IMG/VR virus record: IMGVR_UViG_2886410390_000001
Location: 1 to 64,000 of that record
Direction: 5' to 3' (one strand)
Length of the DNA: 64,000 nt
DNA from: a virus
Taxonomy: Duplodnaviria; Caudoviricetes
The notes under the pieces are model-generated. The model saw nothing but the letters and a program-made list of their open reading frames with translations. It had not been told where the DNA came from and ran no database searches. Made by a program: the position numbers and the translations under genes. Each line of letters opens with the position of its first letter. Position 1 is the stretch's first letter. Below are positions 9,602 through 44,325 of this stretch, one piece after another.

Positions 9602-10901
9602 GTTGGTTTATGGCCTTGCGATCAAGTTCCACTTTTGTTCCACCTGGGAGTTCAATAGTCGCACCAGCAGAGGCGCCAAATATGGCAGAGGCGAGCTGAT
9701 CTGCAGGATGGAGTGGCTCGTCTCTCTTGACGTCAACGGCAACAAACAGGCCATCCGAAAGCCGATTGAGCAGCTCATTCGGGATCTCCGTCCCTTTCTC
9801 CTCCTTCCACTCCAGCGCCATCTCCACAACCCAACTTGCCCTGTCGAGGTCTAGATCGAATCGCTTCTGACGAAACTCCTCATCGGCGTGAGATTGGAAC
9901 CAGCGGTTATTCCAGCGAAGAAAGAATACGGAGGTGCTCGCAAAGGCGACCGCAAATGCCAGTTGTTTTGCAGTAGTGGTAATAAGATCAAGTGAAGAGG
10001 TCGGACTCCCCCCGGTAAGTTGTCGGAAACTAATATATGAATAGGCGACAACCCCTCCAAGAGAAATCAGAAGCAACGCAGACGTAAAAATAAGAACTGG
10101 AAGGCGAAGCCCGCGGGTGCCCTGCGTTAACTCAAATTTTTCACTTCTTTTGGCAAGCTCCTTCTTTAGATCCTGCCTAAGTTGCCTTCGAGCATGCGTA
10201 CTCTTGCTGTCGTCGACCTCTTTTAGTTTCTCACTAATAGCCGTCTCTTTCTCTGCGATGCTTGCCCTCTCTTTGGCAATTTCTTCATCGAGCAGCCGCC
10301 TGCGCTGAGCGTGCTCTTCCTGTAGTTGAGTCGCACGAGACTGGTACTCGCTTTCGAGTTGACTGCGTACATTTCGCGCGTCCTGGGTTAATTGGCTCGC
10401 TATGCGGTTGATGGTTGATTCAAGCTGTGAAATTGCGGCCTCGCGGAGTTCATAGTGGCGCTGAAGTTCAGGAGTGATTATTGACCTAAGCCCTTGTGCG
10501 GACAGAAAGTCCGTGGAGCGTAGGTTCTCGCGTAGGCGATGCACTAGGTTTGTAATCTGGATTTTTGTTGCCTGCGCCGGATTGGAACCATAGTTGCCCA
10601 GGTTCAAGGTAAGAGCGTCAGTCGGGCTGCCTGCCTGTCTGCTTATTGTGGCGTACAGGTTCTGGGCAAATGAGAATTGAAAACTTGAAATGGAGAATGC
10701 ATTTAGCGCGAGCGTTTCTGCCAGCTCGCCAGCGGGTGGGCTCCCGTCTCCAGGCATGCGTAGTGAACTGCCAAGCTCGGTTTGCATGCTTGCCTCGCGA
10801 AATGGCAGATCGCAAGCCCGCAGGGCGCTCAGTAGTCTGTTGATTAATTCCTGATCGGTGTGTTTTGATATTTGTATCGTGATATTCGGAAGATTGGACA
10901 T
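9588..10901 (-). CDS. Moron: coiled-coil plus two-TM membrane protein (437 aa)
   Basis: Lower GC, opposite strand; ATG at 10901; long heptad region, two hydrophobic helices, charged C-terminal domain. Confidence 0.82.
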   Translation of the reverse strand: MSNLPNITIQISKHTDQELINRLLSALRACDLPFREASMQTELGSSLRMPGDGSPPAGELAETLALNAFSISSFQFSFAQNLYATISRQAGSPTDALTLNLGNYGSNPAQATKIQITNLVHRLRENLRSTDFLSAQGLRSIITPELQRHYELREAAISQLESTINRIASQLTQDARNVRSQLESEYQSRATQLQEEHAQRRRLLDEEIAKERASIAEKETAISEKLKEVDDSKSTHARRQLRQDLKKELAKRSEKFELTQGTRGLRLPVLIFTSALLLISLGGVVAYSYISFRQLTGGSPTSSLDLITTTAKQLAFAVAFASTSVFFLRWNNRWFQSHADEEFRQKRFDLDLDRASWVVEMALEWKEEKGTEIPNELLNRLSDGLFVAVDVKRDEPLHPADQLASAIFGASAGATIELPGGTKVELDRKAINQLKKR

Positions 10902-11431
10902 GGCCCGCTCGGTCGGAAGTGTACTGGCGCACAGCCTACTGCGATGGTGCATGTTAAGGCGATGTTGGTTTCTGTGCTGCGAGCGACCGCAGCCATGCTT
11001 GACGTCAAGCGCCGAGTCCTCGCCGCCTCTTCTCCACAAATAGACGAGCCCGGCCGGGAAAGACGGCCGATCCCGCACAGGCCAGGGACACCGGGAAAGC
11101 GCCGCTGGGGCCGCCAGTATGGCGCCCCTGCGTCCGCGCGCAGGGATACGGAGCCTCGATGCCCTGCATACGCCCTCAACCTCTATTCTCCAGTGCTCCA
11201 CCGGCCGAGGTGCGCCTCGTCCTGACGTACCCGGCCAGCGACGGAGCGCGCTGAGCGTCCGTCTGTGAGACCGGGGGCGACATGCCCTCCACATCAACTT
11301 GAAGGGCAGTCGGAGTGGCTCCCCGCCGAAGAGTGGAACGTCACCGTGCTTCATGCCATCAGCGCATGCTGCGCTGGCGCGTCGGTGCAGTGGCGCGCTC
11401 GGCTCACGCTTGAGCTGCATGGAGGTGCATC

Positions 11432-30044: not shown

Positions 30045-30377
30045 GGGCTGGCAGCGTGTTGTCACGTCCAAGTCCTGACGACAGAACCGGGCCAAGGCCA
30101 ACGAGGCGCGCTTGCGCGGTGAGGGCCTCAGGCGCTTCCTGCGGCGCGCTGCGCGCGCCATCATCGAGAATTCGGGAACCGCCACGCTCTCGAAGAGACA
30201 GGACTGACGTCTGCTTCATCCGTGCGGCTGGAGCGGGCCAACCCAAGGCCGGGACGGAGCAGGACGCCCTTTACGATGATCTGATGGGCGTGTAGCGGCT
30301 CCGCCGGTTGACCCATGCCTGCTCACGGGGCGAGCATTCCAGGGGAAGACGCGTGTACCCGCCCCTGGAGGATGCCA

Positions 30378-31601
30378 ATGCCGCTCCATGTGTCAAACCG
30401 GACGCGCCTGTCCCAGTCTCACGTAATCAGTAGAGTGCTGTGGCTCATGGCTGGCTGCCTCTGGGGAACAGAAGCAGCAGCGCAGGCTTCTGGCAGCAAC
30501 AATCCCACTCCGCTCACTACGCCGTGGTGGATTGCGCTGTTGCTAGGGCCGGTAGTCGTCTCGGCCATCGTCAGCGGCATCATCGGATATTTCACCAGCC
30601 GCCATATCGAGCAGGTGCGGGGGAAACTGCAGAGGGAAGTCGAGCAGGTGCGTGGGGTTTTGCAGCAGGAAGTCGAGGCTCGCAAGGCCGACTTGGTGGA
30701 TCGCAACAGCGACCGCGCTGCCCGCCGAGACTACGAGTATGAAGCGCGTAAGCGGCTCTATGCGGAAATCGAGCCCTTGGTCTTCCAGCTACATGACGCG
30801 GTGGAGGAAGCCTACTACCGGGTAATCAGCCTTGCCCGAAGCTCGCGCTCGGGGAACCTTGGCGTCGGCGCGCAGAGTTGGATCAACACCGAAGACTACT
30901 ACCTCTACTCTACGTGCCACCGGCTAACTCAGCCGGTGGTTATGTACCGCCTCTTGCAGCGGCGCATGACCTTCGTCGACCTCACGCTCGATGCGTCGAT
31001 TCGTGTCCGGTATTACCTGCTCAAGTATTACGCCTACTCCTTCACGGATGACTTTGTTCTCGCACGTGCCGAGCCGGGTCTGCGGTACGACCCCAATGCC
31101 AATGACCCCTCCAGTCGGCGAGAGGAAGAGATCGCCGTCTACAAGCACCAGGGCCTTATGGTGGGAGAGGTCGACAAAATGCTCGATGCGATGCTCGTCA
31201 AGGACGACGAAGCGGGGCTACGCCCGATGACTCTGGGTGAGTTCGAGTCGGCTGCAATCCCCAGTGGAAAGCATCGTGCGTCGCTCGAGCCGCTCCTCGA
31301 TCTCCTCATCGCCTTCTCGTCGGAGACCCAGCCTGTCCTCGCACGCATTCTCCTGGTCCAGGCTTGCTACTGCAGGCTCATCCTTGCCACCTACAGTGGG
31401 GCTATCACTGCGGAATCGCTCGGTAAGGGACTCGATGAGTTCCTCGCTGATCCGGAAACGGCTAGGCAGTTCGCTTGGCGCGCCGGTGAGCCCGTCGAGG
31501 CAGAACTCGCCGTCGCCGGCCGCTATGTAAGGGAGCGGCTCGGATGGATTTCGAAGCTCCTCGAGCAGACCTCGGGTCCGACCGCATCCGTTCAGCAGTA
31601 A
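30378..31601 (+). CDS. Moron: signal-like N-terminus, TM helix, coiled coil and large soluble domain
   Basis: Lower GC; GGAGG 6 nt before ATG 30378; TM WWIALLLGPVVVSAIVSGIIGYF; 33-bp tandem duplication at 30607-30672. Confidence 0.8.
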   Translation: MPLHVSNRTRLSQSHVISRVLWLMAGCLWGTEAAAQASGSNNPTPLTTPWWIALLLGPVVVSAIVSGIIGYFTSRHIEQVRGKLQREVEQVRGVLQQEVEARKADLVDRNSDRAARRDYEYEARKRLYAEIEPLVFQLHDAVEEAYYRVISLARSSRSGNLGVGAQSWINTEDYYLYSTCHRLTQPVVMYRLLQRRMTFVDLTLDASIRVRYYLLKYYAYSFTDDFVLARAEPGLRYDPNANDPSSRREEEIAVYKHQGLMVGEVDKMLDAMLVKDDEAGLRPMTLGEFESAAIPSGKHRASLEPLLDLLIAFSSETQPVLARILLVQACYCRLILATYSGAITAESLGKGLDEFLADPETARQFAWRAGEPVEAELAVAGRYVRERLGWISKLLEQTSGPTASVQQ

Positions 31602-31773: not shown

Positions 31774-32364
31774 ATGTCGAACATGGAGCGCTTCCCCTTC
31801 ACCCCCGACTACGGCGCGCAGCTGGAGAGCCAGCTCCGCGTGCGCAAGGCCCAGTTCGGCGACGGGTACTCGCAGCGCTCGGAGGATGGCGCGCGCGGGC
31901 TCCTGCAGCGCTGGTCCGTGCAGTTCACCGCGAGGAAGAAGACGGAGGCGGACGCGCTGGACGCCTTCCTGCGCACGCACCGTGGGGTGGCCGCCTTCGA
32001 GTTCGTCGTGCCGGACAGCGCGTGGGCCGTCACCGGCTTCCGCTTCGGCACGGGGGACGGCGCGCGCACGCAGTACCTCCTGCAGCGGCCATTGTCCCCC
32101 GACGTCCCCGGGGAGCTGGTGCCCGCGACGGGGTGGGGCGCGGCCCCGCTGGTGTACCGCGACGGCGTCCTGGTGGCGGGGACAGGCTACGCGCTCTCCA
32201 GCTCCGGGCTCATCACCTTCACCGCCGCGCCTGGCGCCGGCGCCATCCTCACCTTCACCGCGTCGGGCGCGCAGGTGCTGCGCGTCGTCTGCGAGAGGTG
32301 GACGTCCGTGGTGAAGGGCTTCAACGCGTACGACGTGTCCGTCGAGTTTGAGGAGGTGGCGTAG
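31774..32364 (+). CDS. Distal tail protein (lambda gpM-like) with an ~84-aa insertion
   Basis: V.KAQFGDGYSQR...G, W.VQF, FL..H.G..AFEF; C-terminal V.C..W...S..FEEV. Confidence 0.88.
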   Translation: MSNMERFPFTPDYGAQLESQLRVRKAQFGDGYSQRSEDGARGLLQRWSVQFTARKKTEADALDAFLRTHRGVAAFEFVVPDSAWAVTGFRFGTGDGARTQYLLQRPLSPDVPGELVPATGWGAAPLVYRDGVLVAGTGYALSSSGLITFTAAPGAGAILTFTASGAQVLRVVCERWTSVVKGFNAYDVSVEFEEVA

Positions 32365-33060
32365 GTGAGCATTGCAGAGGACATCCAGAAGCTGGAGCCG
32401 GGTGCGCTCGTGGAGTTGTTTGTCCTCGACGCTAGCGCGCTGCCGGGAGGCGGCATCAACTACTTCCACGCGGGCACCAACGGGCTTGGAGGGCCGGTGG
32501 TGTGGCAGGGCGCGGAGTACCAGCCGTGGCCCGTGCAGGCCCGGGGCTTCGACAAGTCCGGCACCGGGCGGCTGCCACGGCCCACCCTCACCCTGGCCAA
32601 CGTGCTGGGCACCGTGGGCGCCCTCGCGCGGGACTTCAATGACTTGCTCGGCGCGCGCGTCATCCGCAAGCGCACCTTCGTCCGCTACCTCGACGCGGTG
32701 AACTTCCCCGGCGGCACCAACCCCTCCGCGAGCCCGGTGGACGCCTTCCCGGACGACGAGTTCGTCGTCGACCAGAAGACGACGGAGAACAAGCACCTCA
32801 TCGAGTTCACCCTTGCGGCACGGTGCGACCTGGACGGCGTCCGCATCCCCTTGCGCGTCATCACCCAGATGTGCGGCTGGGAGTACCGGGGCGAGGGCTG
32901 CGGCTACGCGGGCCCGCCCGTCGCGAAGGTGGACGACACCCCGACGGCCACCCCGGCCGAGGACCGGTGTGGGAAGCGCCTCGCGAGCTGCAAGCTGCGC
33001 TTCGGGGCCACCGCAGTGCTTCCCTACGGGGGATTCCCGGGAGTGGGGCTGTTGATGTAA
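32365..33060 (+). CDS. Minor tail protein L (lambda gpL-like)
   Basis: VELFVLD, WQGAEYQPWP, RKRTFVRYLDAVNF, C.WEYRGEGCGY, C.K....C..RFG, GGFPG. Confidence 0.95.
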   Translation: MSIAEDIQKLEPGALVELFVLDASALPGGGINYFHAGTNGLGGPVVWQGAEYQPWPVQARGFDKSGTGRLPRPTLTLANVLGTVGALARDFNDLLGARVIRKRTFVRYLDAVNFPGGTNPSASPVDAFPDDEFVVDQKTTENKHLIEFTLAARCDLDGVRIPLRVITQMCGWEYRGEGCGYAGPPVAKVDDTPTATPAEDRCGKRLASCKLRFGATAVLPYGGFPGVGLLM

Positions 33061-33090: not shown

Positions 33091-34788
33091 TCATCGCGGC
33101 TCCGCATCGGCAGTTGGAGTGAGTGGCTTCCCTGCACGGGCAAACTCACGCACGACAATGCCTGCAAGGCGAGACTTCGGCTCCTTCGCTACAATCCGCT
33201 GGCACGCCTCTCTGAATGTTCTCGAAATTGCATGAAGCGAATGCGATGGATCGTCATTCCAGAGATGCCGCGAGAGTACGTCAAAAGCGGCTTGGCGAGC
33301 CTCCGAGCTGCATGTGCGAATGAAGCCTTCAATCTCTTCGACGGACGCTCCACCGAGTCGCGTGATGTGCCCGTACTCCATGCCCTTATTCGTTTCGAGA
33401 AAGTCAAATGATTGATCGAGAGTCGGGATGGGAAACGCCGCGTGTCTCTCGGTCTCGATGGCGGACAGGATTAGCTCGTGAAATCCATCGATGTTGTGTC
33501 GATAGTGGAAGCTGTCCAGGCGTGCGAATGCTGATATTTCTCTCGCGTGACTGGAGATCCATTTGCTTGCAATGGAGGCCCCCATCGCCTTCGATGCGTA
33601 TTCGTCGGCGAGTTTGATTGCTGCATTGGCAGTCCCGCTGTGGATGATTTCTGCATTTTCAAGAATAGATGACAGTACATTGTTCACAGTCGCGTGCGGA
33701 TGATTTGCTTCCCATCGAATTCTCTGGTGGGCCAGTCGAAGAAGTTCTTCCATCTCGAAGTTGCGCTGCCTGCTGTCGAGGAGTTCGCGGTAGTTTGCTA
33801 GGGCGGTTCGGTCGAGGAAGCCACGCTCAAGGTATGGTACTAGCACTTGGGTCTCAAACTCGTCAGGATGGCCGAGTTTGTACTCGTCCAGCAGTTGCTT
33901 GGCCGCCTTCTGGTCGTCGGTTAGTTTCTCGGGATTCTCAAATTTGATCAAGAATGGGTTAAGCGCTTGCTCGAGCGTGAGCGGATTCTTGTGTGTTCCT
34001 TGATGAATCGCAACAAACAGCACGATGCTTGGAATGAGATAAGGCCAATGGTGCGGCAGAATGACTCCTGCGTCATCAAGGGCCTTATATGTGCGGCGCA
34101 TTCGTTGTATTGTTCTGATGTTAGTGATCTTGAGTTTGTTGATGCATGATTTGAACGTCTCGAAGTGCTTCTCGGGCATTTTGCCTAGGCCGATTGAGAT
34201 GGATTCGTCCGTCGTTATTGCCAGAGAAATCTCCATGCTTATCGTTTTCTCTCTCAGTTCGTTCCATTTGGGGTCTTTCTCCAATCTTTCTTTGTTTGCA
34301 ATTAAGAGTATTCGTGTTTCGGAGAGTGTCGCGAGGTGGGTGATGAATCCTAGTATTTCCGTTGCGTCAATCTTATCGGCGGCACGCTCGATATCGTCGA
34401 ACGCGATCACTGATTTTTTAGGGAGCACGTCCCGTAAGGCGGGAAGGAACGACTGAAGATCAGCGAGAGTTGCGGTAATCTTCAGTTCATCTGGGAGTTG
34501 GCTGTTGGCGACGGCAACCACTGCCCGGGTAGCTTTTGCTGCGATTTTTGACTTCGTTGATTGCCCAATTAGTAGTGCGCCGAATGTGGCTGACTTTAGC
34601 GCATCAATTGAGCTGTGATTCAGGCATGAGATGTAGATCGGAGAAAAGCCTAGTGGCTTCAAGTCGGGCAGGATGTCGTTCCAAAGATGCGTCTTCCCTG
34701 TTCCCCAGTCGCCGTGAAGGGCAATTACCGGGGTTTCGGGTAAGCGAAGGGCGTCAAGGAGGGCGGTTCTGGCCTGGGCGAAACTCAT
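33091..34788 (-). CDS. KAP-family P-loop NTPase (moron, 565 aa)
   Basis: Walker A GDWGTGKT, Walker B IAFDDIER, EKTI, N.RTIQR; low GC; opposite strand between L and K. Confidence 0.88.
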   Translation of the reverse strand: MSFAQARTALLDALRLPETPVIALHGDWGTGKTHLWNDILPDLKPLGFSPIYISCLNHSSIDALKSATFGALLIGQSTKSKIAAKATRAVVAVANSQLPDELKITATLADLQSFLPALRDVLPKKSVIAFDDIERAADKIDATEILGFITHLATLSETRILLIANKERLEKDPKWNELREKTISMEISLAITTDESISIGLGKMPEKHFETFKSCINKLKITNIRTIQRMRRTYKALDDAGVILPHHWPYLIPSIVLFVAIHQGTHKNPLTLEQALNPFLIKFENPEKLTDDQKAAKQLLDEYKLGHPDEFETQVLVPYLERGFLDRTALANYRELLDSRQRNFEMEELLRLAHQRIRWEANHPHATVNNVLSSILENAEIIHSGTANAAIKLADEYASKAMGASIASKWISSHAREISAFARLDSFHYRHNIDGFHELILSAIETERHAAFPIPTLDQSFDFLETNKGMEYGHITRLGGASVEEIEGFIRTCSSEARQAAFDVLSRHLWNDDPSHSLHAISRTFREACQRIVAKEPKSRLAGIVVREFARAGKPLTPTADAEPR

Positions 34789-35100
34789 GTGGTCCTCTTT
34801 CTTGAGATGCTGTCGGAAGGCCATCGAAGGCTTGCAGGAGAGTGTAAATTTACTTCGGCGCCGCGCTTGTGAACTGAGCGCCATGGAGCATCATTTGGGG
34901 TCCCGATTGCGAATCCTAGAGTTTGAGTTCCGGTGCGTGACTTGTTCGGTCTAAAGCCGTTTGCGCGTGAGAACATCGAGCTTCGATAGGTCGTGTCGCT
35001 GGCTCCGTCGACCTACTCATGTAGAGGTCGGACGGCGTCCACTCTTGCAGGCATTCGTGCAGATGGCATGGAACTGCATGATACCTCTTGGGAGGTAGTG

Positions 35101-35832
35101 ATGGCCCCAGGCGACGTGGCGGCGTTCTCTCAAGATGTCATTTCCGCGTCGCTCGAGCACGCGCAGGACGAGTACCCGCGCGAGGCGTGCGGTCTCGTCG
35201 TGCTGGTGGCTGGCGCTCAGCGGTACGTGTCGTGCCGGAACCAGGCGGAGGGGCAGTCCCACTTCGTCCTGCATCCGGAGGACTACGCCCAGGCTGAGGC
35301 GGAGGGCGAGGTGCTCGCCGTCGTTCACTCGCACCCCAACGCCGCGCCGGAGCCGAGCGAGGCGGACCGCGTCATGATGGAGCGCTGGGGCCTGCCCTGG
35401 CTCATCATCAACGTCCCCGTGGGGCACTGGCGTCTCTGGTACCCCACCGGGTACCGGCCCCCGCTCATCGGACGGCCCTTCAGTCACGGCGTGCTGGACT
35501 GCTTCTCGCTGGTCCGCGACTACTACGCGGAGCGGCTGGGCCTGGAGTTGCCGGACTTCCACCGCCCTGACGCGTGGTGGGAGAAGGGCGGCAACCTCTA
35601 CCTGGAGGGGTACGCCGAGGCCGGCTTCGTCGACGTCACCGGCAGCGCGCTGCGCGAGCACGACGTCCTCCTCATGCAGCTGCGCTCGCCGGTGCCCAAC
35701 CACGCGGGCGTGTACCTGGGCGCGGACGTTGTCCTCCACCACCTCCAGAATCGGCTCTCCGGAAGGGAGACGTACAGCGGCTTCTGGGAGCGAATCACCC
35801 GGAAGGTTGTGCGGCACCGCAGCCTATGCTGA
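35101..35832 (+). CDS. Tail assembly protein K (JAB/MPN plus NlpC/P60)
   Basis: EACG, VHSHP...PSEAD; GRPFSHGVLDCFSLVRDYY, NHAGVYLG, LHH. Confidence 0.95.
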   Translation: MAPGDVAAFSQDVISASLEHAQDEYPREACGLVVLVAGAQRYVSCRNQAEGQSHFVLHPEDYAQAEAEGEVLAVVHSHPNAAPEPSEADRVMMERWGLPWLIINVPVGHWRLWYPTGYRPPLIGRPFSHGVLDCFSLVRDYYAERLGLELPDFHRPDAWWEKGGNLYLEGYAEAGFVDVTGSALREHDVLLMQLRSPVPNHAGVYLGADVVLHHLQNRLSGRETYSGFWERITRKVVRHRSLC

Positions 35833-36893
35833 CGACGGTGGTACTGGGCGGCCCGCTGGGCCGGCGCTTCGGGCGGGTGTGGCGGCTGGACTTGGGCGTG
35901 CCTTCCCCGGCGGAGGCGGTGCGCGCCCTGTCCGCGGTGTGCGAGGGCTTCGCCCGGTACCTGGTGGACAACAGCGAGCCGGGCTTCCACGTTTTCATCG
36001 GCAAGCAGGACGTCGGGGCTGAGGAGCTGGCGACGCCGGCCAGCGGCTCGCGCGTCATCACCGTCATGCCGGCCTTGGCCGGGGCCAAGTCGGGCTGGTT
36101 CCAGGTGGTGCTGGGCGCGGTGCTCATTGCCGGTGGCGCGGTGCTCTCCGTCTACGGCTTCGGTGCCGGCACGCCGCTCATCACCATGGGCGCCTCCCTC
36201 GTGGTGGGTGGCGTCTCGCAGCTGCTCTTCGCTCCGCCCACGCCCCTGGCACCCGTGGAGCGGCCGGAGAATCAGCCCTCGTACACCTTCAACGGGCCCG
36301 TCAACACGCTGGGCCAGGGCCACCCGGTGCCCCTCTGCTACGGGGAGCTGGAGGTGGGCAGCTGCGTCATCTCCGCCGGCATCGTCACCGAGTGGAATGC
36401 CGGGGGCGGCTTCGGCGGCGCTGGCGGCAGCGGACAGAGCGGACCGAGGGGCGAGCCGGCGGGTGGTGGCGGCTGCCCCGCGCCGTGGGTGCCCGTCCTC
36501 CTGGCAGACGGCCGCGAGGTGCCCGCGGGCGAGCTGCAGGTGGGCGACTGGGTGCGCACCCAGCACGATGCGACGCTGGCGTGGGGCGACTTCCCCGTCA
36601 CCGGCGTGGCCCACCTCGAGGCCGACTGCTGGCGCGTCGAGCTGGACGACGGGAGGGCCTTCGTGGGCACGTACAACCACCGCGTGCGCACGGAAGAGGC
36701 CTGGGTGGAGGTGCGGCACCTGGTGCCCGGCGCGCGCCTCGTCGGTGCATGCGCGGGCGTGGTGCGGCAGGTGGCGCCGTGCGGCCGCGGGCCTGTGGTG
36801 CGCGTCACAGTGGAGGACGCGCACACGTACCAGACGGCCGGCTTCCTCTCGCACAACGTGAAGCAGGCGGACCCGGAGGCGCCGGATGTCTGA
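35826..36893 (+). CDS. Tail assembly protein I (lambda gpI-like) fused to a C-terminal Hint domain
   Basis: LGGPLGRRFG, AEAVRAL, SYTFNGPVNT..QG.PVP.CYG...VGS.VISAG; then a Gly linker and C...TYNH...LSHN (36474-36857). Confidence 0.92.
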   Translation: MLTTVVLGGPLGRRFGRVWRLDLGVPSPAEAVRALSAVCEGFARYLVDNSEPGFHVFIGKQDVGAEELATPASGSRVITVMPALAGAKSGWFQVVLGAVLIAGGAVLSVYGFGAGTPLITMGASLVVGGVSQLLFAPPTPLAPVERPENQPSYTFNGPVNTLGQGHPVPLCYGELEVGSCVISAGIVTEWNAGGGFGGAGGSGQSGPRGEPAGGGGCPAPWVPVLLADGREVPAGELQVGDWVRTQHDATLAWGDFPVTGVAHLEADCWRVELDDGRAFVGTYNHRVRTEEAWVEVRHLVPGARLVGACAGVVRQVAPCGRGPVVRVTVEDAHTYQTAGFLSHNVKQADPEAPDV

Positions 36894-39393
36894 GAAGGGC
36901 CCCCTCATCGGCTACGGCGGCAACAGCGGCGGCAAGGGCGGCAGCGAGGCCCAGCGCTCGCCGGTGGAGCGCCCAGACACGCTGAAGTCGTCCGCGCACG
37001 CGCGTGTCCTCGACTTGCTGTGCGAGGGCGAAATCGAAGGACTCGTGGACGGGCTGAAGTCCGTCTACCTCGACGGCGTGCCGGTGCAGAACCCGGACGG
37101 CAGCTTCAACTTCCGCGACGTCACCCTCTACGACGTGAAGGGCACGCAGTCGCAGGAGTACATCCCCGGGTTTCCTTCGGCGGAGGCTGAGTACGTCGTC
37201 AACACCGAGGTGAAGAAGGACACGCCGGTGGTGCGCACCGTCACCGACGCCAGTGTGGACGCGGTGCGCGTCACCGTGCAGGTGCCGCAGCTGTCCCAGC
37301 AGCAGCCCGTCACGGGGGACCTCGGCCCTGACCTCGTCGCCATCGCCATTGACGTGCAGAGCAACGGCGGCGGCTACGTTGCCCAGGACTTGAAGGGGGC
37401 GGGCACCATTTCTGGCAAGTGCACCAGCCCCTACGAGAGGACGTACCGCGTGGAGCTCACCGGCAGCCCGCCGTGGGACATCCGCGTGCGGCGCCTCACC
37501 GCGGACAGCAGCTCCGCCACGCGGCAGAACAAGACGTACTGGAAGTCCTACGCCACGCTGGTGGACGAGAAGCTCAGCTTCCCCAACAGCGCGCTGTGTG
37601 CGCTGCAGGTGTCCGCGCACCAATTCCAGTCCATTCCCACGCGCAGCTACCGCATTCGCGGGCTGAAGGTGCGGGTGCCCTCCAACTACAACCCCACCAC
37701 GCGGGCGTACACCGGCACGTGGGACGGCACCTTTCAGGTGGCGTGGACGGACAACCCGGCCTGGTGCTTCTACGACTTGCTGACGACGAAGCGCTACGGC
37801 CTGGGCCGCTTCCTCAACCCGGCCCACGTGGACAAGTGGGGGCTGTACACCATTGCCCGCTACTGCGACGAGTTGGTGCCGGACGGGAAGGGCGGCATGG
37901 AGCCGCGCTTCCGCTGCAACCTCTACCTCCAGACGCAGGCGGACGCGTACCAGGTCGTCAACAACCTCGCCTCCGTCTTCCGCGGCATGACGTACTGGGC
38001 GAGCGGCGCGGTGTACGTCGCCCAGGACGCGCCCCGGGACGCCGAGTACCTCTTCACCCCGGCCAACGTGGTGGACGGCCTCTTCACCTACTCCAGTAGC
38101 GGCCGGCGCGCGCGCCACACCGTGGCGCTGGTGACGTGGAACGACCCGGCCAACCACTACCAGTCCGCGAAGGAGTACGTGGCCGACGAGGAGGGCCTCG
38201 CCACCTACGGCTACAACCCCACCGAGGTGGTGGCCCTGGGCTGTACCTCGCGCAGCCAGGCGCAGCGGGTGGGCCGGTGGTTGCTGTACACCGAGAGGCT
38301 GGAGACGGAGACGGTGGTATTCCGCACTGGCCTCGAGGGGGCGCTGCGCAACCCCGGCGCCGTGGTGAAGGTGCTGGACTCGCACCGGGCCGGCCGCCGC
38401 TGGGGCGGGCGCGTGGTGGCCGCCACCGCCTCCCTCGTCGAGCTCGACTCGGACGTCACCGTGGAGGTGGGCAAGGCGTACACCCTCTTCGTGGTGCTGC
38501 CGGACGGGAAGGTGGAGGAGCGGCCCCTGGCGACGCTGCCCCCGGCGCCGTACCGGGCCCTTACCGTCGCCACGCCCTTCTCCGCGGCGCCGACGCCTCA
38601 GGCCGTCTGGGTGCTCGCCGCGTCCGACTTGGCGCCCACCACGTGGCGCATTCTCAGCGTCAGCGAGGTGGAGCCGCACCTGTATGAAGTCACCGCGCTG
38701 CGCCACCACCCCGGCAAGTACGCGGAAGTGGAGTACGGGGTGAAGGTGCAGCCGGTGCCCACCTCGGTGCTTCCATCCTCCGCGCCGCCCGCGGGGCTGG
38801 TGCTGGGGGAGAGCCTCTACAAGACGACCAACGGAGGGCTGAAGGTGTCCCTCAACGCGCGGTGGACGCAGCACCCGGGCGCCACTGAGTACGTGGTGCG
38901 CTGGCGGCAGGCCGGGGGCAACTGGGCCACGGAGAGGGGCGTGCAGGTGCACTTCTGGGAGCTGCGGGACATTGCCCCCGGCCCGTACAGCGTGCAGGTG
39001 GCCGCCGTCCTCAACGGCCTCGTCACCGCCTTCTCCGAGGCCTCGTACACGGTGCTGGGCAAGGCCGCGCCTCCGTCGGACGTCACCGGTTTCGCCTACA
39101 GCCTCAACGGCAACACGGCCACGCTGCGCTGGGCGGAAATCGCCGACTTGGACAGGGACATGTACGAGCTGCGCTACGGCGGACTCGCCTGGGAGAGCGC
39201 CACCTTCATCGCCAAGGTGCGCGCCACCGCGCACGAGTGGCCGCTGCCGTCGCCCGCCAACTACACGGTGTGGCTGAAGGCCGTGGACACCTCGGGCAAC
39301 CCCAGCGCCAACGCGGCGTCCGTCACCGTGCTGGCCGCGCCCACCACGCCGGCCTCCGTCACCATGACGGTGTCCTCCACCCCGCCAGCCTGA
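36886..39393 (+). CDS. Baseplate hub / central tail fibre (lambda gpJ-like, short, 835 aa)
   Basis: GGKGG, DLLCEGEIEGL, WTDNPAW.FYD, CN, FRGM, GCTSRSQAQR.GRW; FnIII-like C-terminal domains. Confidence 0.95.
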   Translation: MSEKGPLIGYGGNSGGKGGSEAQRSPVERPDTLKSSAHARVLDLLCEGEIEGLVDGLKSVYLDGVPVQNPDGSFNFRDVTLYDVKGTQSQEYIPGFPSAEAEYVVNTEVKKDTPVVRTVTDASVDAVRVTVQVPQLSQQQPVTGDLGPDLVAIAIDVQSNGGGYVAQDLKGAGTISGKCTSPYERTYRVELTGSPPWDIRVRRLTADSSSATRQNKTYWKSYATLVDEKLSFPNSALCALQVSAHQFQSIPTRSYRIRGLKVRVPSNYNPTTRAYTGTWDGTFQVAWTDNPAWCFYDLLTTKRYGLGRFLNPAHVDKWGLYTIARYCDELVPDGKGGMEPRFRCNLYLQTQADAYQVVNNLASVFRGMTYWASGAVYVAQDAPRDAEYLFTPANVVDGLFTYSSSGRRARHTVALVTWNDPANHYQSAKEYVADEEGLATYGYNPTEVVALGCTSRSQAQRVGRWLLYTERLETETVVFRTGLEGALRNPGAVVKVLDSHRAGRRWGGRVVAATASLVELDSDVTVEVGKAYTLFVVLPDGKVEERPLATLPPAPYRALTVATPFSAAPTPQAVWVLAASDLAPTTWRILSVSEVEPHLYEVTALRHHPGKYAEVEYGVKVQPVPTSVLPSSAPPAGLVLGESLYKTTNGGLKVSLNARWTQHPGATEYVVRWRQAGGNWATERGVQVHFWELRDIAPGPYSVQVAAVLNGLVTAFSEASYTVLGKAAPPSDVTGFAYSLNGNTATLRWAEIADLDRDMYELRYGGLAWESATFIAKVRATAHEWPLPSPANYTVWLKAVDTSGNPSANAASVTVLAAPTTPASVTMTVSSTPPA

Positions 39394-39406
39394 GGAAGAA
39401 GACGTC

Positions 39407-41521
39407 ATGCGAGCTCGCGAGAGAGAAGGCGTCGGCGGCGTCATCGAGGACGGCACCCCCACCAACCGGACGCCCCGCATCCTCAAGCCGAAGTACCTCG
39501 ACATCCGCTGGGCGCACACCGAGGTGCTGCCGGCCCACCTGCTGGTGGGCTTCCAGGTGGCCGTCTTCACCGGCAATGACCCGAACAACACCGACGCCTA
39601 CCTCGTGGAGCCGGTGCGGGTGGGGCCTTCCGAGAGGCGCGCGGTGGTGTCGCTGCGGGTGGCCACCACGCAGAATGTCCGCTGTGCCGTCCAGGCCCTC
39701 TACTCCAACGGCAACCAGAGTAGCTGGCGCGTCCTTGGCGGGGCGGTGGCGACGGACCCGGACACCGTCACCATGGCGGTGCAAGACTTGTCCAACGTCA
39801 CGGCCGGCGCGGTGAAGCCGGCGCACCTGGCCGCCGCGGCCGTCACCAGTGACAAGGTGGCTGCCAGCGCCATCGCCACCCAGCACCTGCTGCTGCCGCC
39901 GTCGGACAACCTCGTGCCCAATGGCTACAGCGAGGCGGGGACGGCGGCGCTGGGTAAGTCGCCAGAGGGTAGCTACCTCGTCAATGACCCGGCCAACGCG
40001 CGCGAGGGCAATTGGTGTCGAAAGCTCCCCCTCGTCGCGGGGGCATACTCGGCCATCGCCTTCGCTGGAGAAATTCCGTGCGCCAGCGGGGACCAGTTCT
40101 ACGCCGAGGCGTGGGTGAAGCTTTCCGCGGCGCCCTCCGCGCCGCCTCCGTGGAACCTGTACCTGCGCTTCTTGGACAGGACGGGCGCCCTTGTCGGGTT
40201 GCCGCTGACGACGCTGAGTACCGTCACCGCCACCTACCAACGCTTTAAGGTGACGGGCACTGCTCCGGCGGGTGCGGTGTCCGTCTCGCTCATCCTCGAC
40301 ACCTCAGGCACCCCGAATTCGGTGCCGGCGGCGGACGGAGGGAAGTCCCTCTTCATCGACGCCGTCTCCATGCGGAAAATGGTGACGTTCGACTTGCTGT
40401 CGGCCAACACCCTCAAGACGAGCAACTACGCGGAGGACGGCAACGGCATCCCGACGGCGGGTGCGAAGCTGGACAACGTGGGCACGGCGCTGAAGGTGGC
40501 GTCGGGCAACCTCCAGGTGGGCCGCTACCCGCTGGAGGCCATGTTCTACAAGAGCCTCGTCACGCTCGATGGCCCGGGCCCCGGCAACCGCTGCTTCTAC
40601 CGGGGCAACAACAACGGGGCGGTGCGGGGTGGGGCGCCCAATATCGACAGGGTGCGCGTGGAGTGCGCGGACAACATCTCCGGCGCGTCGCTGTCCTGGG
40701 CGAAGTGGCAGCTCTTCCTGGAGCCGCAGTCGCTGGACGACAACTTCGACGGCATGCGCCACGCGCGCGTGGAGTTGTGGGTGCGGCAGACGGCCAACCT
40801 GGGCTTTCGCCACCAGGTGCTCTACGCCCCGCTGGCGGACAGGGTGTACCGGGACGCCGTCGACGCCACGGCCAACAACGCCGGGGCCACTTCCTTCGAG
40901 TACATGTACGCCGGCAACATCTCCGGGCTGGCCGCCTCCAACGTGTACAACTGGTACCTGCTGGTGTCCGTCGTCAACGTGTATGGGGCGAGCGCCAGCA
41001 AGTGGTTCCTCCCGAGTGCCAGCCGCAACACGGCCTTCGCCTCGCAGTACGCGGCGCCTTTCTCCGGGGCAACGGCCGGTGGAGGTGGAGGTGGAGGAAG
41101 CGACGGGGACGGGTACTGCCCGGCGCCGTGGGAGCCGATTCTCCTCGCGGAAGGCGGCGAGGTGCCGGCGGACCTGGTGCGCCCCGGCATGCGCGTCCTC
41201 ACGTGGCACGAGGCCTCCCTGAAGCCGGACGTGTACGAGGTGGCCGGTGTCTCCAGTGCGCGGGCGCAGCGCTACCGGCTCGTGCTGGAGGACGGACGCA
41301 CGGTGGTGGCCTCGCGGCCGCACCCGCTGTACGCGGAAGGCCGTGGCTGGACGGCACTCGCTGACTTGCGGCCCGGCGACGTCCTCCTGGGCACGCGCCC
41401 GGGCCGCGTCCGGCGGGTGGAGCCGGAAGGGGAGGGCGACGTCGTGAAGCTCTCCGTCCACGGGGCCCGCACCTACCAGGTGAAGGGCCTCCTTTCCCAC
41501 AACGCCAAGCAGCGCGAGTAG
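39407..41521 (+). CDS. Tail fibre / receptor-binding protein with a CBM-like domain and C-terminal Hint domain
   Basis: AVT..K.A..AI.T fibre motif; NLVPNG...FIDAV jelly-roll-like segment; GGGGGGSDGDGY-C...SRPH...LSHN (41117-41503). Confidence 0.85.
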   Translation: MRAREREGVGGVIEDGTPTNRTPRILKPKYLDIRWAHTEVLPAHLLVGFQVAVFTGNDPNNTDAYLVEPVRVGPSERRAVVSLRVATTQNVRCAVQALYSNGNQSSWRVLGGAVATDPDTVTMAVQDLSNVTAGAVKPAHLAAAAVTSDKVAASAIATQHLLLPPSDNLVPNGYSEAGTAALGKSPEGSYLVNDPANAREGNWCRKLPLVAGAYSAIAFAGEIPCASGDQFYAEAWVKLSAAPSAPPPWNLYLRFLDRTGALVGLPLTTLSTVTATYQRFKVTGTAPAGAVSVSLILDTSGTPNSVPAADGGKSLFIDAVSMRKMVTFDLLSANTLKTSNYAEDGNGIPTAGAKLDNVGTALKVASGNLQVGRYPLEAMFYKSLVTLDGPGPGNRCFYRGNNNGAVRGGAPNIDRVRVECADNISGASLSWAKWQLFLEPQSLDDNFDGMRHARVELWVRQTANLGFRHQVLYAPLADRVYRDAVDATANNAGATSFEYMYAGNISGLAASNVYNWYLLVSVVNVYGASASKWFLPSASRNTAFASQYAAPFSGATAGGGGGGGSDGDGYCPAPWEPILLAEGGEVPADLVRPGMRVLTWHEASLKPDVYEVAGVSSARAQRYRLVLEDGRTVVASRPHPLYAEGRGWTALADLRPGDVLLGTRPGRVRRVEPEGEGDVVKLSVHGARTYQVKGLLSHNAKQRE

Positions 41522-42370: not shown

Positions 42371-43885
42371 TTACTTTGTGGACATACCCTGTGCCCCAGC
42401 CTTGTTCGAACCCTTGGTCTTGTCGGTAACTGCCTTTCGCAACTCAACAGGCATGAACATGCCCCTTGGCCATGCCGCAGCGTTCGCGCCCCATCCGATG
42501 TATTGATATTGATAATAAGGCCCCAGTGGGTGGTCTGGATCAGAACGCAAAAGAAGCAATGGTTTTCGGTTCTCACCAACCTTGATAGTTTCTGATTTAC
42601 CATCAGTTGCGACGATGAGGTCACCGCTCACATCTCGCGGAATATTGAACTCGAAAGTATTCCCGAGCGAGACAGGCCAAATCCTGGCCTGTTGGGGTGG
42701 CTTTGGCACTGTTCCCGTGACGTTGATGGTCCCGCACAAGGCAACAGAAACACTGCGAGAACCTAGTTGCTGACAAGCTCGGACATGTTGAGGTTGTGAT
42801 ACCTCCCATGTGAGGCGACCGGGGTCGCCCACGGCGTTCCAACCGCATGAACCATCGTTGTCCCGCGCGCACGTATACTGGGGATTGGTGATAGTCTCGC
42901 TGGCGTTGGTGGTTCTTAACTCAGCACAGACTCTATAGCGCAACCACCTATTATCAACGCAGTCATAGCCTGGTTCTTTTGCTCGGTTGACGGGAAACGT
43001 GAACTTGCCTCCAGTGGACACCTGTTTTATGCAGCGCTCATTGTGAAGATTGAGTGAGTCGACTATTGGCCCGCATGCTCGGTACTGGTTTGTTACACCG
43101 GTGGTGGTGGCGACAACATTGAGAACAACGGTTCCCTCAGGCTTGGGGTTCGGCCGGGTCGCAGATACGACGGAAGTCCCACGACTGTGGTTGATAGCCA
43201 CAGTGCCAACTCTTGATTCGGCATTCCAACTGCAGACGACGGCATTGCCCTCTCCCTCGAAGGATATGGCCGAATTCTGTGGAATTGGGGCCTTCGGGCA
43301 CGCAAGTCCCGTGGCATCAATGCTTTGGAAGTTCGGTGCACCTGCATCTGGATTGACGTTCCTATCCCATCTAAATGTCACAGTAACTGTCTCAAGCGTA
43401 CTGGCCTTTACGTTGGCCTTGACAGGCGCTGGGGCTGCGGAATTGTGAGTGGTGGAATAGAGATTCATACACGCCTGCCATGCCTGAAGCGCCTCAGGTG
43501 TGGTATAGCGTTGGAAGATAGAGAGCGAACTGCGCGACGAGACGTAAAGGCCTACATCGCTGCAATACGCCTTATTAGTCACCTGTCGTGCTGTGGATTT
43601 CCCGTTTGCAGCGACATCAATGACCCATACTGACAAGTCTCCATTGCCTTCAACAGCACTAGTCTCGTCGTGAAAATAGTTTTCGCAGGCGATCTTGCGA
43701 AAAGCAGTGTCTGCGTTCTCATTGCTCGTTGCACGAAGTTCATTCGGGAGCAAACTTAGAGCGCAGGCTCTTCCAAATGCCTCTATGTCATCAGCCTCTG
43801 CCTCGGCCACTATAGGCAGTAGTGTTAAAGTCATAGCCATAAGCAGAGGAAGAAGAACGCCACTTCTCACCACTAAAGTCGGCAT
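42371..43885 (-). CDS. Moron: secreted Cys-containing beta-rich protein (504 aa)
   Basis: Low GC; signal peptide ending AEA; many spaced Cys. Confidence 0.8.
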   Translation of the reverse strand: MPTLVVRSGVLLPLLMAMTLTLLPIVAEAEADDIEAFGRACALSLLPNELRATSNENADTAFRKIACENYFHDETSAVEGNGDLSVWVIDVAANGKSTARQVTNKAYCSDVGLYVSSRSSLSIFQRYTTPEALQAWQACMNLYSTTHNSAAPAPVKANVKASTLETVTVTFRWDRNVNPDAGAPNFQSIDATGLACPKAPIPQNSAISFEGEGNAVVCSWNAESRVGTVAINHSRGTSVVSATRPNPKPEGTVVLNVVATTTGVTNQYRACGPIVDSLNLHNERCIKQVSTGGKFTFPVNRAKEPGYDCVDNRWLRYRVCAELRTTNASETITNPQYTCARDNDGSCGWNAVGDPGRLTWEVSQPQHVRACQQLGSRSVSVALCGTINVTGTVPKPPQQARIWPVSLGNTFEFNIPRDVSGDLIVATDGKSETIKVGENRKPLLLLRSDPDHPLGPYYQYQYIGWGANAAAWPRGMFMPVELRKAVTDKTKGSNKAGAQGMSTK

Positions 43886-44325
43886 GGATACGCCTCCGTG
43901 GGCAGCGAAAAGACCGCGAACTGCAGTAAGACGCTTCCCTACTCGAAGCGAAAAGTAAAGCCCCCCAAATAGCAGCCAGTGGTTTCCGAGCCAGCAAGCG
44001 CATGATGGTAGAGATCTGAACTCGCGTTCGTCCTCGCCCCGCCCGCGAATAGAGGCGCTCTCTCGGTTCTCATGGCGCCTCCGCGCCGTGCAGCCCGACC
44101 AGGAGCCGGCCGGGGAACCCCAGCACTGATTTTCCCAGTAAGTCTCTGGAACGCCGCCGGGTGAACGCGGGAGAGCGCATCCGGCTCCGACATGTGATCT
44201 CAGGACGAGGGGCGGGAGTAGCTTCAGAAGTGGAGCGATAACAGGGTCCTTGCGGCAGTGACGCATGAAGAGTCGGTGCGGCAGGCGGAGGCGTTGGGCT
44301 GGCATGCCAGGAGCGGGGCCCAGGC

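What the first reader, a model, noticed from the sequence alone, without database searches (positions are those of the whole stretch)
36474..36893. gpI homologue (ubiquitin-like family) fused to a Hint, next to a JAB plus NlpC/P60 gpK
Seen: 216 aa of gpI-like sequence and linker, then C...GTYNH...VVRVTV...LSHN-VKQADPEAPDV, overlapping the gpJ start. The block-F position that is usually Asp appears to be Arg here. Established: gpI has a beta-grasp (Ub-like) N-terminus and gpK carries a JAB peptidase domain. Inference: a Ubl-Hint next to a JAB resembles an E1-independent conjugation and deconjugation pair, in which the Hint activates the gpI C-terminus and gpK trims it.
Basis: partly seen in the sequence, partly recalled or inferred. 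Interest (0 to 1): 0.72.

Follow-up and report, generated by a model that had tools for sequence, protein, structure and literature searches.

The report
Self-cutting intein-like cap on gpI
A myxobacterial prophage makes its tail-tip plug protein (gpI) with an intact intein-like Hint domain on its end; the same domain caps many other phage tail proteins, including the fibre gene 4.6 kb downstream, so it most likely cuts itself off during tail maturation and is not a partner of gpI's ubiquitin-like domain.

Summary
ORF 35826-36893 (355 aa) has three parts: a lambda gpI homologue (residues 1-195), a Gly-rich linker ending GGGG, and a 128-aa Hint domain (Cys217 to His-Asn344) with an 11-aa tail. 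It overlaps the gpJ start by 8 nt. gpK upstream has intact JAB and NlpC/P60 domains. The block F:4 position is Arg, and Lys/Arg across the family, never Asp.

The Hint is a type-A BIL / PT-HINT-like domain. It has Cys1, the block-B His and His-Asn, but no +1 nucleophile and no endonuclease. It is under purifying selection (dN/dS 0.15-0.53).

This Hint subfamily (684 hits) mostly sits at the extreme C-terminus of unrelated phage tail proteins. A second copy ends the fibre protein at 39407-41521 in this same prophage. Most gpI homologues next to a JAB gpK have no Hint. About 130 residues separate the Hint from the ubiquitin-like domain.

The best reading is a generic self-removing C-terminal cap. 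A Lys at +1 or +2 after His-Asn is nearly invariant, and the closest solved fold is Tetrahymena BUBL BIL2. This keeps a ligation or isopeptide reading open.

This scan has already noted the same fusion on other genomes. I found no published description.

The parts
34993..35832 (+). gpK homologue (P0001): JAB/JAMM peptidase (residues 47-149) plus NlpC/P60 (160-274). The start codon is uncertain.
   Evidence: Pfam Prok-JAB E 5e-18 and NLPC_P60 E 6e-13; phrog_30 E 3e-116. JAMM motif HSHPNAAPEPSEAD at residue 112, E64 and Cys170.
35826..36893 (+). Whole gpI-Hint ORF (P0003, 355 aa). Its ATG overlaps the gpK stop, and its stop overlaps the gpJ start.
   Evidence: GC3 is 0.83 in this frame.
35826..36086 (+). 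gpI N-terminal ubiquitin-like (beta-grasp) domain, residues 1-87, ending ...MPALAGA.
   Evidence: Pfam Lambda_tail_I 5-87, E 4e-4, below the cut-off. phrog_32 and PDB gpI matches. AF2 strand/helix pattern with pLDDT about 80. The Ubl assignment comes from Iyer 2006, PMC1779556.
36093..36227 (+). Two Gly-rich hydrophobic helices, residues 90-134, equivalent to lambda gpI H1/H2.
   Evidence: AF2 helices 90-109 and 115-134. Alignment to 8iyk_I. H1/H2 are described in PMC11101478.
36228..36410 (+). gpI C-terminal plug region (TAPI-C), residues 135-195.
   Evidence: PDB 9e7m and 8iyk gpI matches reach residue 195. Disordered in the monomer model, as expected for a part that folds by beta-augmentation on gpJ (PMC10721106).
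36411..36473 (+). Gly-rich linker, residues 196-216, ending GGGG immediately before Cys1.
   Evidence: Family-wide, positions -1 to -3 before Cys1 are mostly Gly.
36474..36857 (+). Hint domain, type-A BIL-like, residues 217-344. Key residues: Cys217 (block A), T282-Y-N-H285 (block B), Arg326 at F:4, His333 (AHTY), His343-Asn344 (block G).
36858..36893 (+). C-flank VKQADPEAPDV plus stop. Val at +1 is not a nucleophile. Lys346 at +2 is invariant in 12 gpI-Hint fusions.
36886..39393 (+). gpJ homologue (P0002): hub domains and FNIII, 835 aa.
   Evidence: Pfam FNIII-A_GpJ E 1e-40 and Phage-tail_3 E 9e-25; phrog_31 E 3e-291.
39407..41521 (+). Distal fibre or tip protein (P0169, 704 aa) that ends in a second Hint of the same subfamily.
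   Evidence: The Atlas features point to Phage_Tail_Tip, FN3 and CBM families, but only as a lead because scores are below 0.9. No Pfam or PHROG hit.
41117..41503 (+). Second Hint domain, residues 571-699 of P0169. It follows a poly-Gly linker ...GGGGGGGSDGDGY|CPAPW, has block B SRPH and Lys at F:4, and ends LSHN followed by AKQRE and the stop.
   Evidence: the genome search 'own' gives E 1e-28 and 45% identity to the gpI Hint. Translation; coordinates.

Best explanation
The gene encodes a pro-form of the tail-tip plug protein gpI. An active, non-splicing Hint domain (type-A BIL / PT-HINT-like) hangs from the gpI C-terminus on a flexible Gly-rich linker.

Proposed mechanism (inferred, not shown):
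1. Cys217 performs an N-to-S acyl shift on the Gly216-Cys217 bond.
2. The resulting thioester is resolved, and Asn344 cyclises.
3. The Hint thereby leaves the protein during or after assembly of the gpL-gpI-gpJ hub.
4. What remains is a gpI about the size of ordinary Hint-less gpI. It may carry the short Lys-containing tail, re-joined by aminolysis.

The module is a generic, mobile C-terminal cap of phage tail proteins. It plays a role analogous to the self-cleaving C-terminal chaperone domains of tail fibres and spikes. It acts independently of the ubiquitin-like domain and of gpK's JAB peptidase. By the published prediction, the JAB acts at the other end of gpI, after the Ubl.
For: Shown here:
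- Hint fold and profile membership.
- Invariant Cys1 (151/151), block-B His (151/151) and His-Asn (150/150 full-length matches). The block-F His is kept in 127/151.
- +1 is never Cys and is Ser/Thr in only 7 of 149.
- The domain is 128 aa with no endonuclease insert.
- dN/dS is 0.15-0.53 for the Hint and 0.11-0.52 for gpI in five Myxococcus prophages.
- In 80 of 149 domains at most 16 residues follow His-Asn, so the domain is usually terminal.
- The N-terminal partners are tail proteins: Phage-tail_3, central fibre J, tail fibres, pb4 and baseplate spike.
- A second copy ends the fibre gene of the same prophage and of related prophages in G122 and G126.
- Close Hint-less gpI relatives end 15-20 residues after the ISAG motif, about where the linker lies here.

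Established in the literature:
- Type-A BILs lack the +1 nucleophile, give mainly cleavage products and can splice by aminolysis (PMC4031507).
- gpI residues 135-223 form the plug in the lambda tip (PMC10721106).
Against: - No biochemical data exist for any member of this subfamily.
- If only self-removal mattered, the invariant His-Asn and the near-invariant Lys at +1/+2 would be hard to explain. Hedgehog-type and B-type domains cleave N-terminally without them. The chemistry at the C-junction probably matters, and the product may not be a simple hydrolysed end.
- F:4 is Arg/Lys instead of Asp, so the catalytic set is not the canonical one and its activity is untested.
- The Hint could be retained in the virion.
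Confidence: 0.62

Rival explanations
1. Hint-driven ligation. The Cys217 thioester is captured by an amine instead of water. One version is in cis: Lys346 or the new alpha-amine after Asn cyclisation attacks, giving BIL-type splicing that leaves the short tail on gpI through a peptide or isopeptide bond. The other is in trans: a Lys of gpJ, gpL or the fibre attacks, stapling the plug's C-terminal anchor covalently into the hub. The twin Hint on the fibre would work the same way.
For: - Lys at +2 in 103 of 151 domains and at +1 in 46, and invariant in 12 gpI-Hint fusions, although it lies outside the fold.
- The full Asn-cyclisation set is conserved even where only 2-6 residues follow.
- The best solved structural match is Tetrahymena BUBL BIL2. 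That domain forms Lys-epsilon isopeptide bonds to the N-extein carboxyl and conjugates it to other proteins without ATP (PMC8616854).
- The C-terminal strands of lambda gpI stay bound in gpJ after opening (PMC11101478), so a covalent anchor there would be compatible with function.
Against: - No acceptor has been identified.
- The structural match to BIL2 is no better than to many inteins (E 3e-10 against 5e-9).
- Lys could have an electrostatic or structural role.
- Hint-less gpI relatives function without any such link.
Confidence: 0.22
2. One reading: a Ubl-Hint plus JAB pair forms an E1-independent conjugation and deconjugation system. The Hint activates gpI as a ubiquitin-like modifier and gpK's JAB trims or reverses the conjugate.
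For: - gpI has a beta-grasp N-terminus and gpK an intact JAMM site.
- BUBL loci show that BIL domains can conjugate Ubls.
- Earlier scan notes report other phages where a Hint sits directly after the Ubl of gpI (untested here).
Against: - Residues 88-216 separate the Ubl from the Hint.
- The same Hint caps proteins without a Ubl, including the fibre in this prophage.
- A JAB-bearing gpK accompanies gpI generally, and most gpI have no Hint.
- The published prediction is that the JAB cuts after the Ubl, not at the C-terminus.
Confidence: 0.06
3. The Hint is catalytically silent and is kept as a structural or receptor-contacting domain on the outside of the tail tip.
For: - F:4 Asp is missing.
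- No Pfam Hint model matches this copy directly.
Against: Cys1, the block-B His and His-Asn are absolutely conserved over 150 diverged copies, and the linker before Cys1 is flexible and Gly-rich. This is the pattern expected for catalysis, not for a binding surface.
Confidence: 0.08

Closest known systems
Type-A bacterial intein-like (BIL) domains / Pfam PT-HINT (PF07591), e.g. Clostridium thermocellum BIL (PDB 2lwy)
   Same: Both have the Hint fold, Cys1, block-B TxxH and a C-terminal His-Asn. Both lack a +1 nucleophile and an endonuclease. The profile gives E 2e-10 to 2lwy, and 24 of 59 family members match PF07591.
   Different: The context is the C-terminal end of phage tail proteins, not secreted polymorphic toxins with a toxin after the Hint. 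F:4 is Lys/Arg. Lys at +1/+2 is near-invariant. This copy does not reach PF07591 on its own.
Tetrahymena thermophila BUBL1 BIL2 (PDB 6y75/6tmm), a BIL that conjugates ubiquitin-like domains through Lys isopeptide bonds
   Same: It is the best Foldseek match (E 3e-10, TM 0.82). Both are BIL domains in a protein that also has a ubiquitin-like domain, and both have a Lys available C-terminal to the domain.
   Different: In BUBL the Ubl's C-terminal Gly abuts Cys1. Here about 130 residues of other domains intervene. Sequence identity is 20%. No conjugation has been shown here.
Lambda gpI / TAPI with gpK (JAB + NlpC/P60) (Iyer 2006; PDB 8iyk chain I)
   Same: Residues 1-195 align over the whole of gpI. 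The L-K-I-J gene order is kept. The domain order is Ubl, hydrophobic helices, then plug.
   Different: Ordinary gpI is 195-266 aa and stops where the linker lies here. This one carries 160 extra residues: linker, Hint and tail.
C-terminal self-cleaving intramolecular chaperone domains (peptidase S74) of phage tail fibres and spikes
   Same: Both sit at the extreme C-terminus of tail proteins and are presumed to remove themselves after assembly. This is an analogy from general knowledge, and PMC10579305 discusses transient caps.
   Different: The fold and chemistry are unrelated: Ser-Lys dyad proteolysis against thioester formation and Asn cyclisation.
Hedgehog C-terminal autoprocessing domain (PDB 1at0)
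   Same: Both are C-terminal Hints whose Cys1 thioester releases the N-terminal protein (Foldseek E 1e-7).
   Different: Hedgehog has a sterol-recognition region and no His-Asn. This domain has His-Asn and only 11 residues after it.

Membership tests
Lambda gpI / tail assembly protein I (TAPI) | Sequence homology across the Ubl, the hydrophobic linker and the TAPI-C plug | tested here: met
   phrog_32 E 7e-54 (2-189); 8iyk_I E 3e-22 (7-195); 25vf_9 E 2e-37. Pfam PF06805 alone is below its cut-off at 21.2 against 23.8 bits.
Lambda gpI / tail assembly protein I (TAPI) | Gene lies between gpK (JAB + NlpC/P60) and gpJ in a lambda-like tail module | tested here: met
   Order is TMP, gpM, gpL, [KAP NTPase insert], gpK, gpI-Hint, gpJ.
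Lambda gpI / tail assembly protein I (TAPI) | N-terminal beta-grasp (ubiquitin-like) fold | tested here: inconclusive
   The AF2 secondary-structure pattern for residues 1-85 with pLDDT about 80 is compatible. No separate fold search of this domain was run; the assignment rests on Iyer 2006.
Hint (Hedgehog/intein) superfamily | Hint fold | tested here: met
   AF2 pLDDT 94.7. Foldseek probability 1.00 and TM 0.75-0.85 to BIL2, inteins, HhC and 2lwy.
Hint (Hedgehog/intein) superfamily | Block A nucleophile (Cys/Ser1) and block B TxxH | tested here: met
   Cys217 and T282-Y-N-H285. Cys and His are invariant in 151 relatives.
Type-A BIL / PT-HINT | C-terminal His-Asn with no Cys/Ser/Thr at +1 | tested here: met
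   H343-N344 followed by Val. Family +1 residues: K46, V28, I24, A23, with S/T only 7 and no Cys.
Type-A BIL / PT-HINT | Match to Pfam PF07591 above the gathering threshold | tested here: not met
   No hit for P0004 at E up to 10. A genome scan with PF07591 does not pick up either copy. Relatives do match: 24 of 59, best E 2.5e-8. The domain is best treated as a sister subfamily, not a curated member.
Type-A BIL / PT-HINT | Autocatalytic N- and/or C-terminal cleavage | not testable with these tools
   Needs expression of wild type against C217A and N344A.
Canonical class 1 intein | +1 Cys/Ser/Thr, F:4 Asp, and insertion in a conserved site of a host protein restored by splicing | tested here: not met
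   +1 is Val and F:4 is Arg. The domain is terminal, and Hint-less gpI simply ends there.
BUBL-type Ubl-BIL conjugation module | The Ubl C-terminal Gly directly precedes Cys1 of the BIL | tested here: not met
   The Ubl ends near residue 87 and Cys1 is residue 217.
BUBL-type Ubl-BIL conjugation module | Isopeptide formation to a Lys | not testable with these tools
   A conserved Lys346 is present, but its role is unknown.

The most novel reading that the evidence does not exclude
This Hint subfamily may be a protein-ligating module of phage tails, not only a self-cleaving one. The Cys1 thioester at the end of the Gly linker would be captured by the conserved Lys after His-Asn, or by a Lys of a neighbouring tail protein. 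That would create ATP-independent peptide or isopeptide links, in effect covalent staples in the tail tip and fibre. The chemistry would match Tetrahymena BUBL BIL2 but serve virion assembly.
Probability: 0.2. Interest if true: 0.8.

Novelty: new variant of a known kind. Interest (0 to 1): 0.55.

Why it matters
Hint/BIL domains are known from inteins, Hedgehog, polymorphic toxins and ciliate BUBL loci. I found no open-access paper describing them as a recurrent C-terminal cap of phage tail proteins.

If the cap only removes itself, it is a second, chemically distinct answer to the problem that S74 chaperone domains solve for fibres. It would also add a maturation step to the well-studied lambda-type tip. 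If it ligates, phage tails would hold a new kind of covalent cross-link.

The small, endonuclease-free domain with its conserved HN-x-K could also interest people who build protein-ligation tools.

Tried and rejected
- Pfam on the Hint alone gave nothing useful: only DUF7454 at E 0.02.
- tblastn against 50,697 phage records gave 2 weak hits, one in a terminase intein. The fusion is therefore not in cultured phages at that sensitivity.
- The genome-contig scan with P0003 returned only a Hint-less Burkholderiales gpI.
The gene contexts of the metagenomic gpI-Hint and other Hint-bearing proteins could not be read.
- The listing of cluster members gave no names for 10 metagenomic relatives.
- The roughly 1080-aa Myxococcus proteins with a terminal Hint (G096 and others) have no Pfam match and remain unidentified.
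- PF07591 hits in the own genome (contig C100) are a different, non-HN Hint type and are no use as a control for the Lys.
- The Dassa 2004 JBC paper on BIL splicing is not held.
- I considered a frameshift that would fuse gpI-Hint to gpJ and make a true intein. I rejected it because +1 is Val, tail lengths vary among orthologues, and the overlap looks like ordinary translational coupling.
- The FastTree of Hint domains places gpI-attached Hints in at least three positions and the fibre Hint elsewhere. I did not assess branch support, so this is only a hint of domain mobility.

Full report
**1. What is there**

The window is high-GC DNA from a Myxococcus-group genome. The closest named relatives of the protein are from Myxococcus and Corallococcus. 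It carries a complete siphovirus-type prophage. Its genes include terminase, portal, head morphogenesis protein, major head protein, tail tube and tape measure. These are followed by gpM-like (31774-32364), gpL (32365-33060), gpK (34993-35832), the ORF in question (35826-36893), gpJ (36886-39393) and a 704-aa distal protein (39407-41521). A low-GC3 gene on the opposite strand (33091-34884) interrupts the L-K junction.

**2.

The ORF translates to 355 residues.

- Residues 2-189 match PHROG 32 'tail assembly protein' (E 7e-54).
- Residues 7-195 align with the solved lambda gpI (8iyk chain I, E 3e-22) and with two other solved tail assembly proteins.
- Pfam's own Lambda_tail_I model scores just below its threshold.
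- A full-length AlphaFold model (12-sequence alignment, mean pLDDT 69.9) gives four regions:
  - a compact strand/helix domain at 1-85;
  - two long helices at 90-109 and 115-134;
  - no confident structure for 136-214;
  - a confident beta-rich domain at 217-344.

This layout matches the published one: Ubl, Gly-rich hydrophobic helices H1/H2, then a plug that only folds against gpJ.

After the linker ...GEPAGGGG comes Cys217, encoded at exactly 36474. It is followed by GTYNH, VVRVTVEDAHTY and GFLSHN, then VKQADPEAPDV and the stop, 8 nt past the gpJ ATG.

**3. The C-terminal domain is a Hint**

No Pfam family recognises this copy directly, but relatives carry PF07591 PT-HINT. Three further lines agree.

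- A profile of 44 relatives finds a PT-HINT-bearing chain 8w20 (E 3e-14), the gp41-1 and NpuDnaB inteins (E 1e-10) and the C. thermocellum BIL 2lwy (E 2e-10).
- The domain model has pLDDT 94.7.
- Foldseek returns BIL2 of the Tetrahymena BUBL1 locus, many inteins, the Hedgehog C-domain and 2lwy, all at probability 1.00 and TM 0.75-0.85.

In the HMM alignments Arg326 sits where gp41-1, NpuDnaB and 8w20 have Asp and 2lwy has Asn. In 151 family domains the position is K70, R38, H10, L8 and never Asp.

**4. Which kind of Hint**

The domain has Cys1, TxxH and His-Asn, Val at +1, and 128 residues with no endonuclease. This is the definition of a type-A BIL. Such domains mostly cleave at one or both junctions. 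They can splice when the amine freed by Asn cyclisation attacks the N-terminal thioester (PMC4031507). The domain fails the tests for a canonical intein: no +1 nucleophile, no F:4 Asp, and no insertion in a conserved host site.

**5. The family context changes the reading**

An exhaustive search of 1.84 billion representatives found 684 relatives of the Hint at E up to 1e-3. I analysed the best 150.

- Cys1 is present in 149/149 domains.
- His-Asn is present in 150/150 full-length matches.
- +1 is never Cys and is Ser/Thr only 7 times.
- The residues before Cys1 are mostly Gly.
- In 80 of 149 domains at most 16 residues follow His-Asn, and often only 2-6.
- The N-terminal parts range from 32 to 2888 residues. 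Where recognisable, they are phage tail proteins: Phage-tail_3/gpJ-like, central fibre J, tail fibres, pb4, baseplate spike and tail assembly proteins. About 13 of them are gpI.

A search of the window's own genome then found a second copy 4.6 kb downstream. It forms the last 134 residues of the 704-aa protein after gpJ. That copy reads GGGGGGGSDGDGY|CPAPW...SRPH...DVVKLSV...LLSHN-AKQRE-stop and is 45% identical to the gpI Hint. The protein looks like the distal fibre or tip, but that is a lead only.

The Hint is therefore a general cap of tail proteins, not an accessory of the ubiquitin-like domain.

**6. Distribution and selection**

- Among 32 species genomes of the genus, full-length gpI-Hint occurs in four others (70-80% identity). 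In two of these (G122, and both copies in G126) the downstream second Hint is there too.
- In 120 further genomes of the family it was not found with this query.
- Metagenomic gpI-Hint fusions at 45-58% identity also exist.
- In an alignment of 12 fusions, C217, H285, H343, N344 and K346 are invariant.
- Nei-Gojobori dN/dS among five Myxococcus prophages is 0.15-0.53 for the Hint and 0.11-0.52 for the gpI part. Both parts are maintained by selection.
- Of the 120 best gpI relatives, about 107 are 195-266 aa with no Hint. These include close ones such as P0172 (63% identity, 207 aa), which ends 15-20 residues after the ISAG motif. The Hint is an optional addition, and the expected mature gpI ends about where the linker lies.

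**7. Mechanism**

Shown: a conserved, apparently competent Hint active site lies on a flexible linker at the C-terminus of the plug protein.

Inferred: an N-S acyl shift at Gly216-Cys217, resolution of the thioester and cyclisation of Asn344 take the Hint off gpI. I rate simple self-removal, a maturation cap analogous to S74 chaperone domains, as most likely (0.62).

One feature is not explained by simple removal. The whole Asn-cyclisation apparatus is invariant, and so nearly is a Lys at +2 (103/151) or +1 (46/151), even where only a few residues follow. Type-A BIL aminolysis and the Lys-isopeptide chemistry of BUBL BIL2 offer a precedent for ligation. I keep that as the main rival (0.22).

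**8.

A Ubl-Hint/JAB conjugation pair is not supported as stated, for three reasons.

1. The Ubl and the Hint are about 130 residues apart.
2. The Hint occurs on Ubl-less tail proteins in this very prophage.
3. gpK with JAB is the standard neighbour of Hint-less gpI. It is predicted to cut after the Ubl, at the other end of the protein.

gpK's JAMM and NlpC/P60 sites are intact, but nothing connects them to the Hint.

**9. Novelty**

Full-text searches found no paper that combines Hint, BIL or PT-HINT with gpI or with tail fibre or tip proteins in this sense. Database annotators have labelled some uncultured phage proteins 'Hint domain'.

This scan has already noted the same fusion and the twin Hints on other genomes and on this window, with similar readings. 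I reached the second Hint and the family picture independently.

I class it as a new variant of a known kind.

Noticed in passing
window 33091-34884 (- strand): A 597-aa KAP-family P-loop NTPase (P0005) with low GC3 (0.58 against about 0.9 for its neighbours) is inserted antisense between tail genes L and K. It matches the PADLOC candidate defence family PDC-S49 (E 7e-23) and is likely a prophage-borne anti-phage moron.
   Followed up: partly
window 9588-11420 (- strand): A second low-GC3 (0.57) antisense ORF of 610 aa lies inside the prophage. It has no Pfam, PHROG or PADLOC match and may be another cargo gene.
   Followed up: partly
window 39393-39407 and P0169 N-terminus: gpJ here is only 835 aa: hub domains and FNIII, with no recognisable tip or receptor-binding domains. 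The next ORF (704 aa) seems to supply the distal fibre, so the central fibre appears split into two genes.
   Followed up: partly
L005/L010 (G096:C1:3880692-3884000), L004, L006, L017, L018: Several Myxococcus-family genomes carry 1-3 copies of a roughly 1075-1200-aa protein that ends in the same Hint subfamily (38-45% identity). It has no Pfam match. One copy lies near a DUF2381 gene and a Ser/Thr kinase, so it is not obviously a prophage tail gene.
   Followed up: partly
P0024, P0041, P0055, P0060, P0082 (metagenomic relatives): Some relatives contain two or more tandem Hint domains. Each is followed directly by Lys at +1 and a Pro- or Arg-rich spacer (SHN-KSPLPP, SHN-KRRRP). This is a different architecture from the terminal cap.
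   Followed up: no
window 30315-31601 (+) and 42371-44305 (-): ORFs of 428 and 644 aa lie within or beside the tail module and match no family in Pfam or PHROGs.
   Followed up: no
L015 (G126:C21), the gpI-Hint orthologue: One orthologue has Leu at F:4 (GPVVLLTV) instead of Arg or Lys, so a basic residue there is not obligatory.
   Followed up: no
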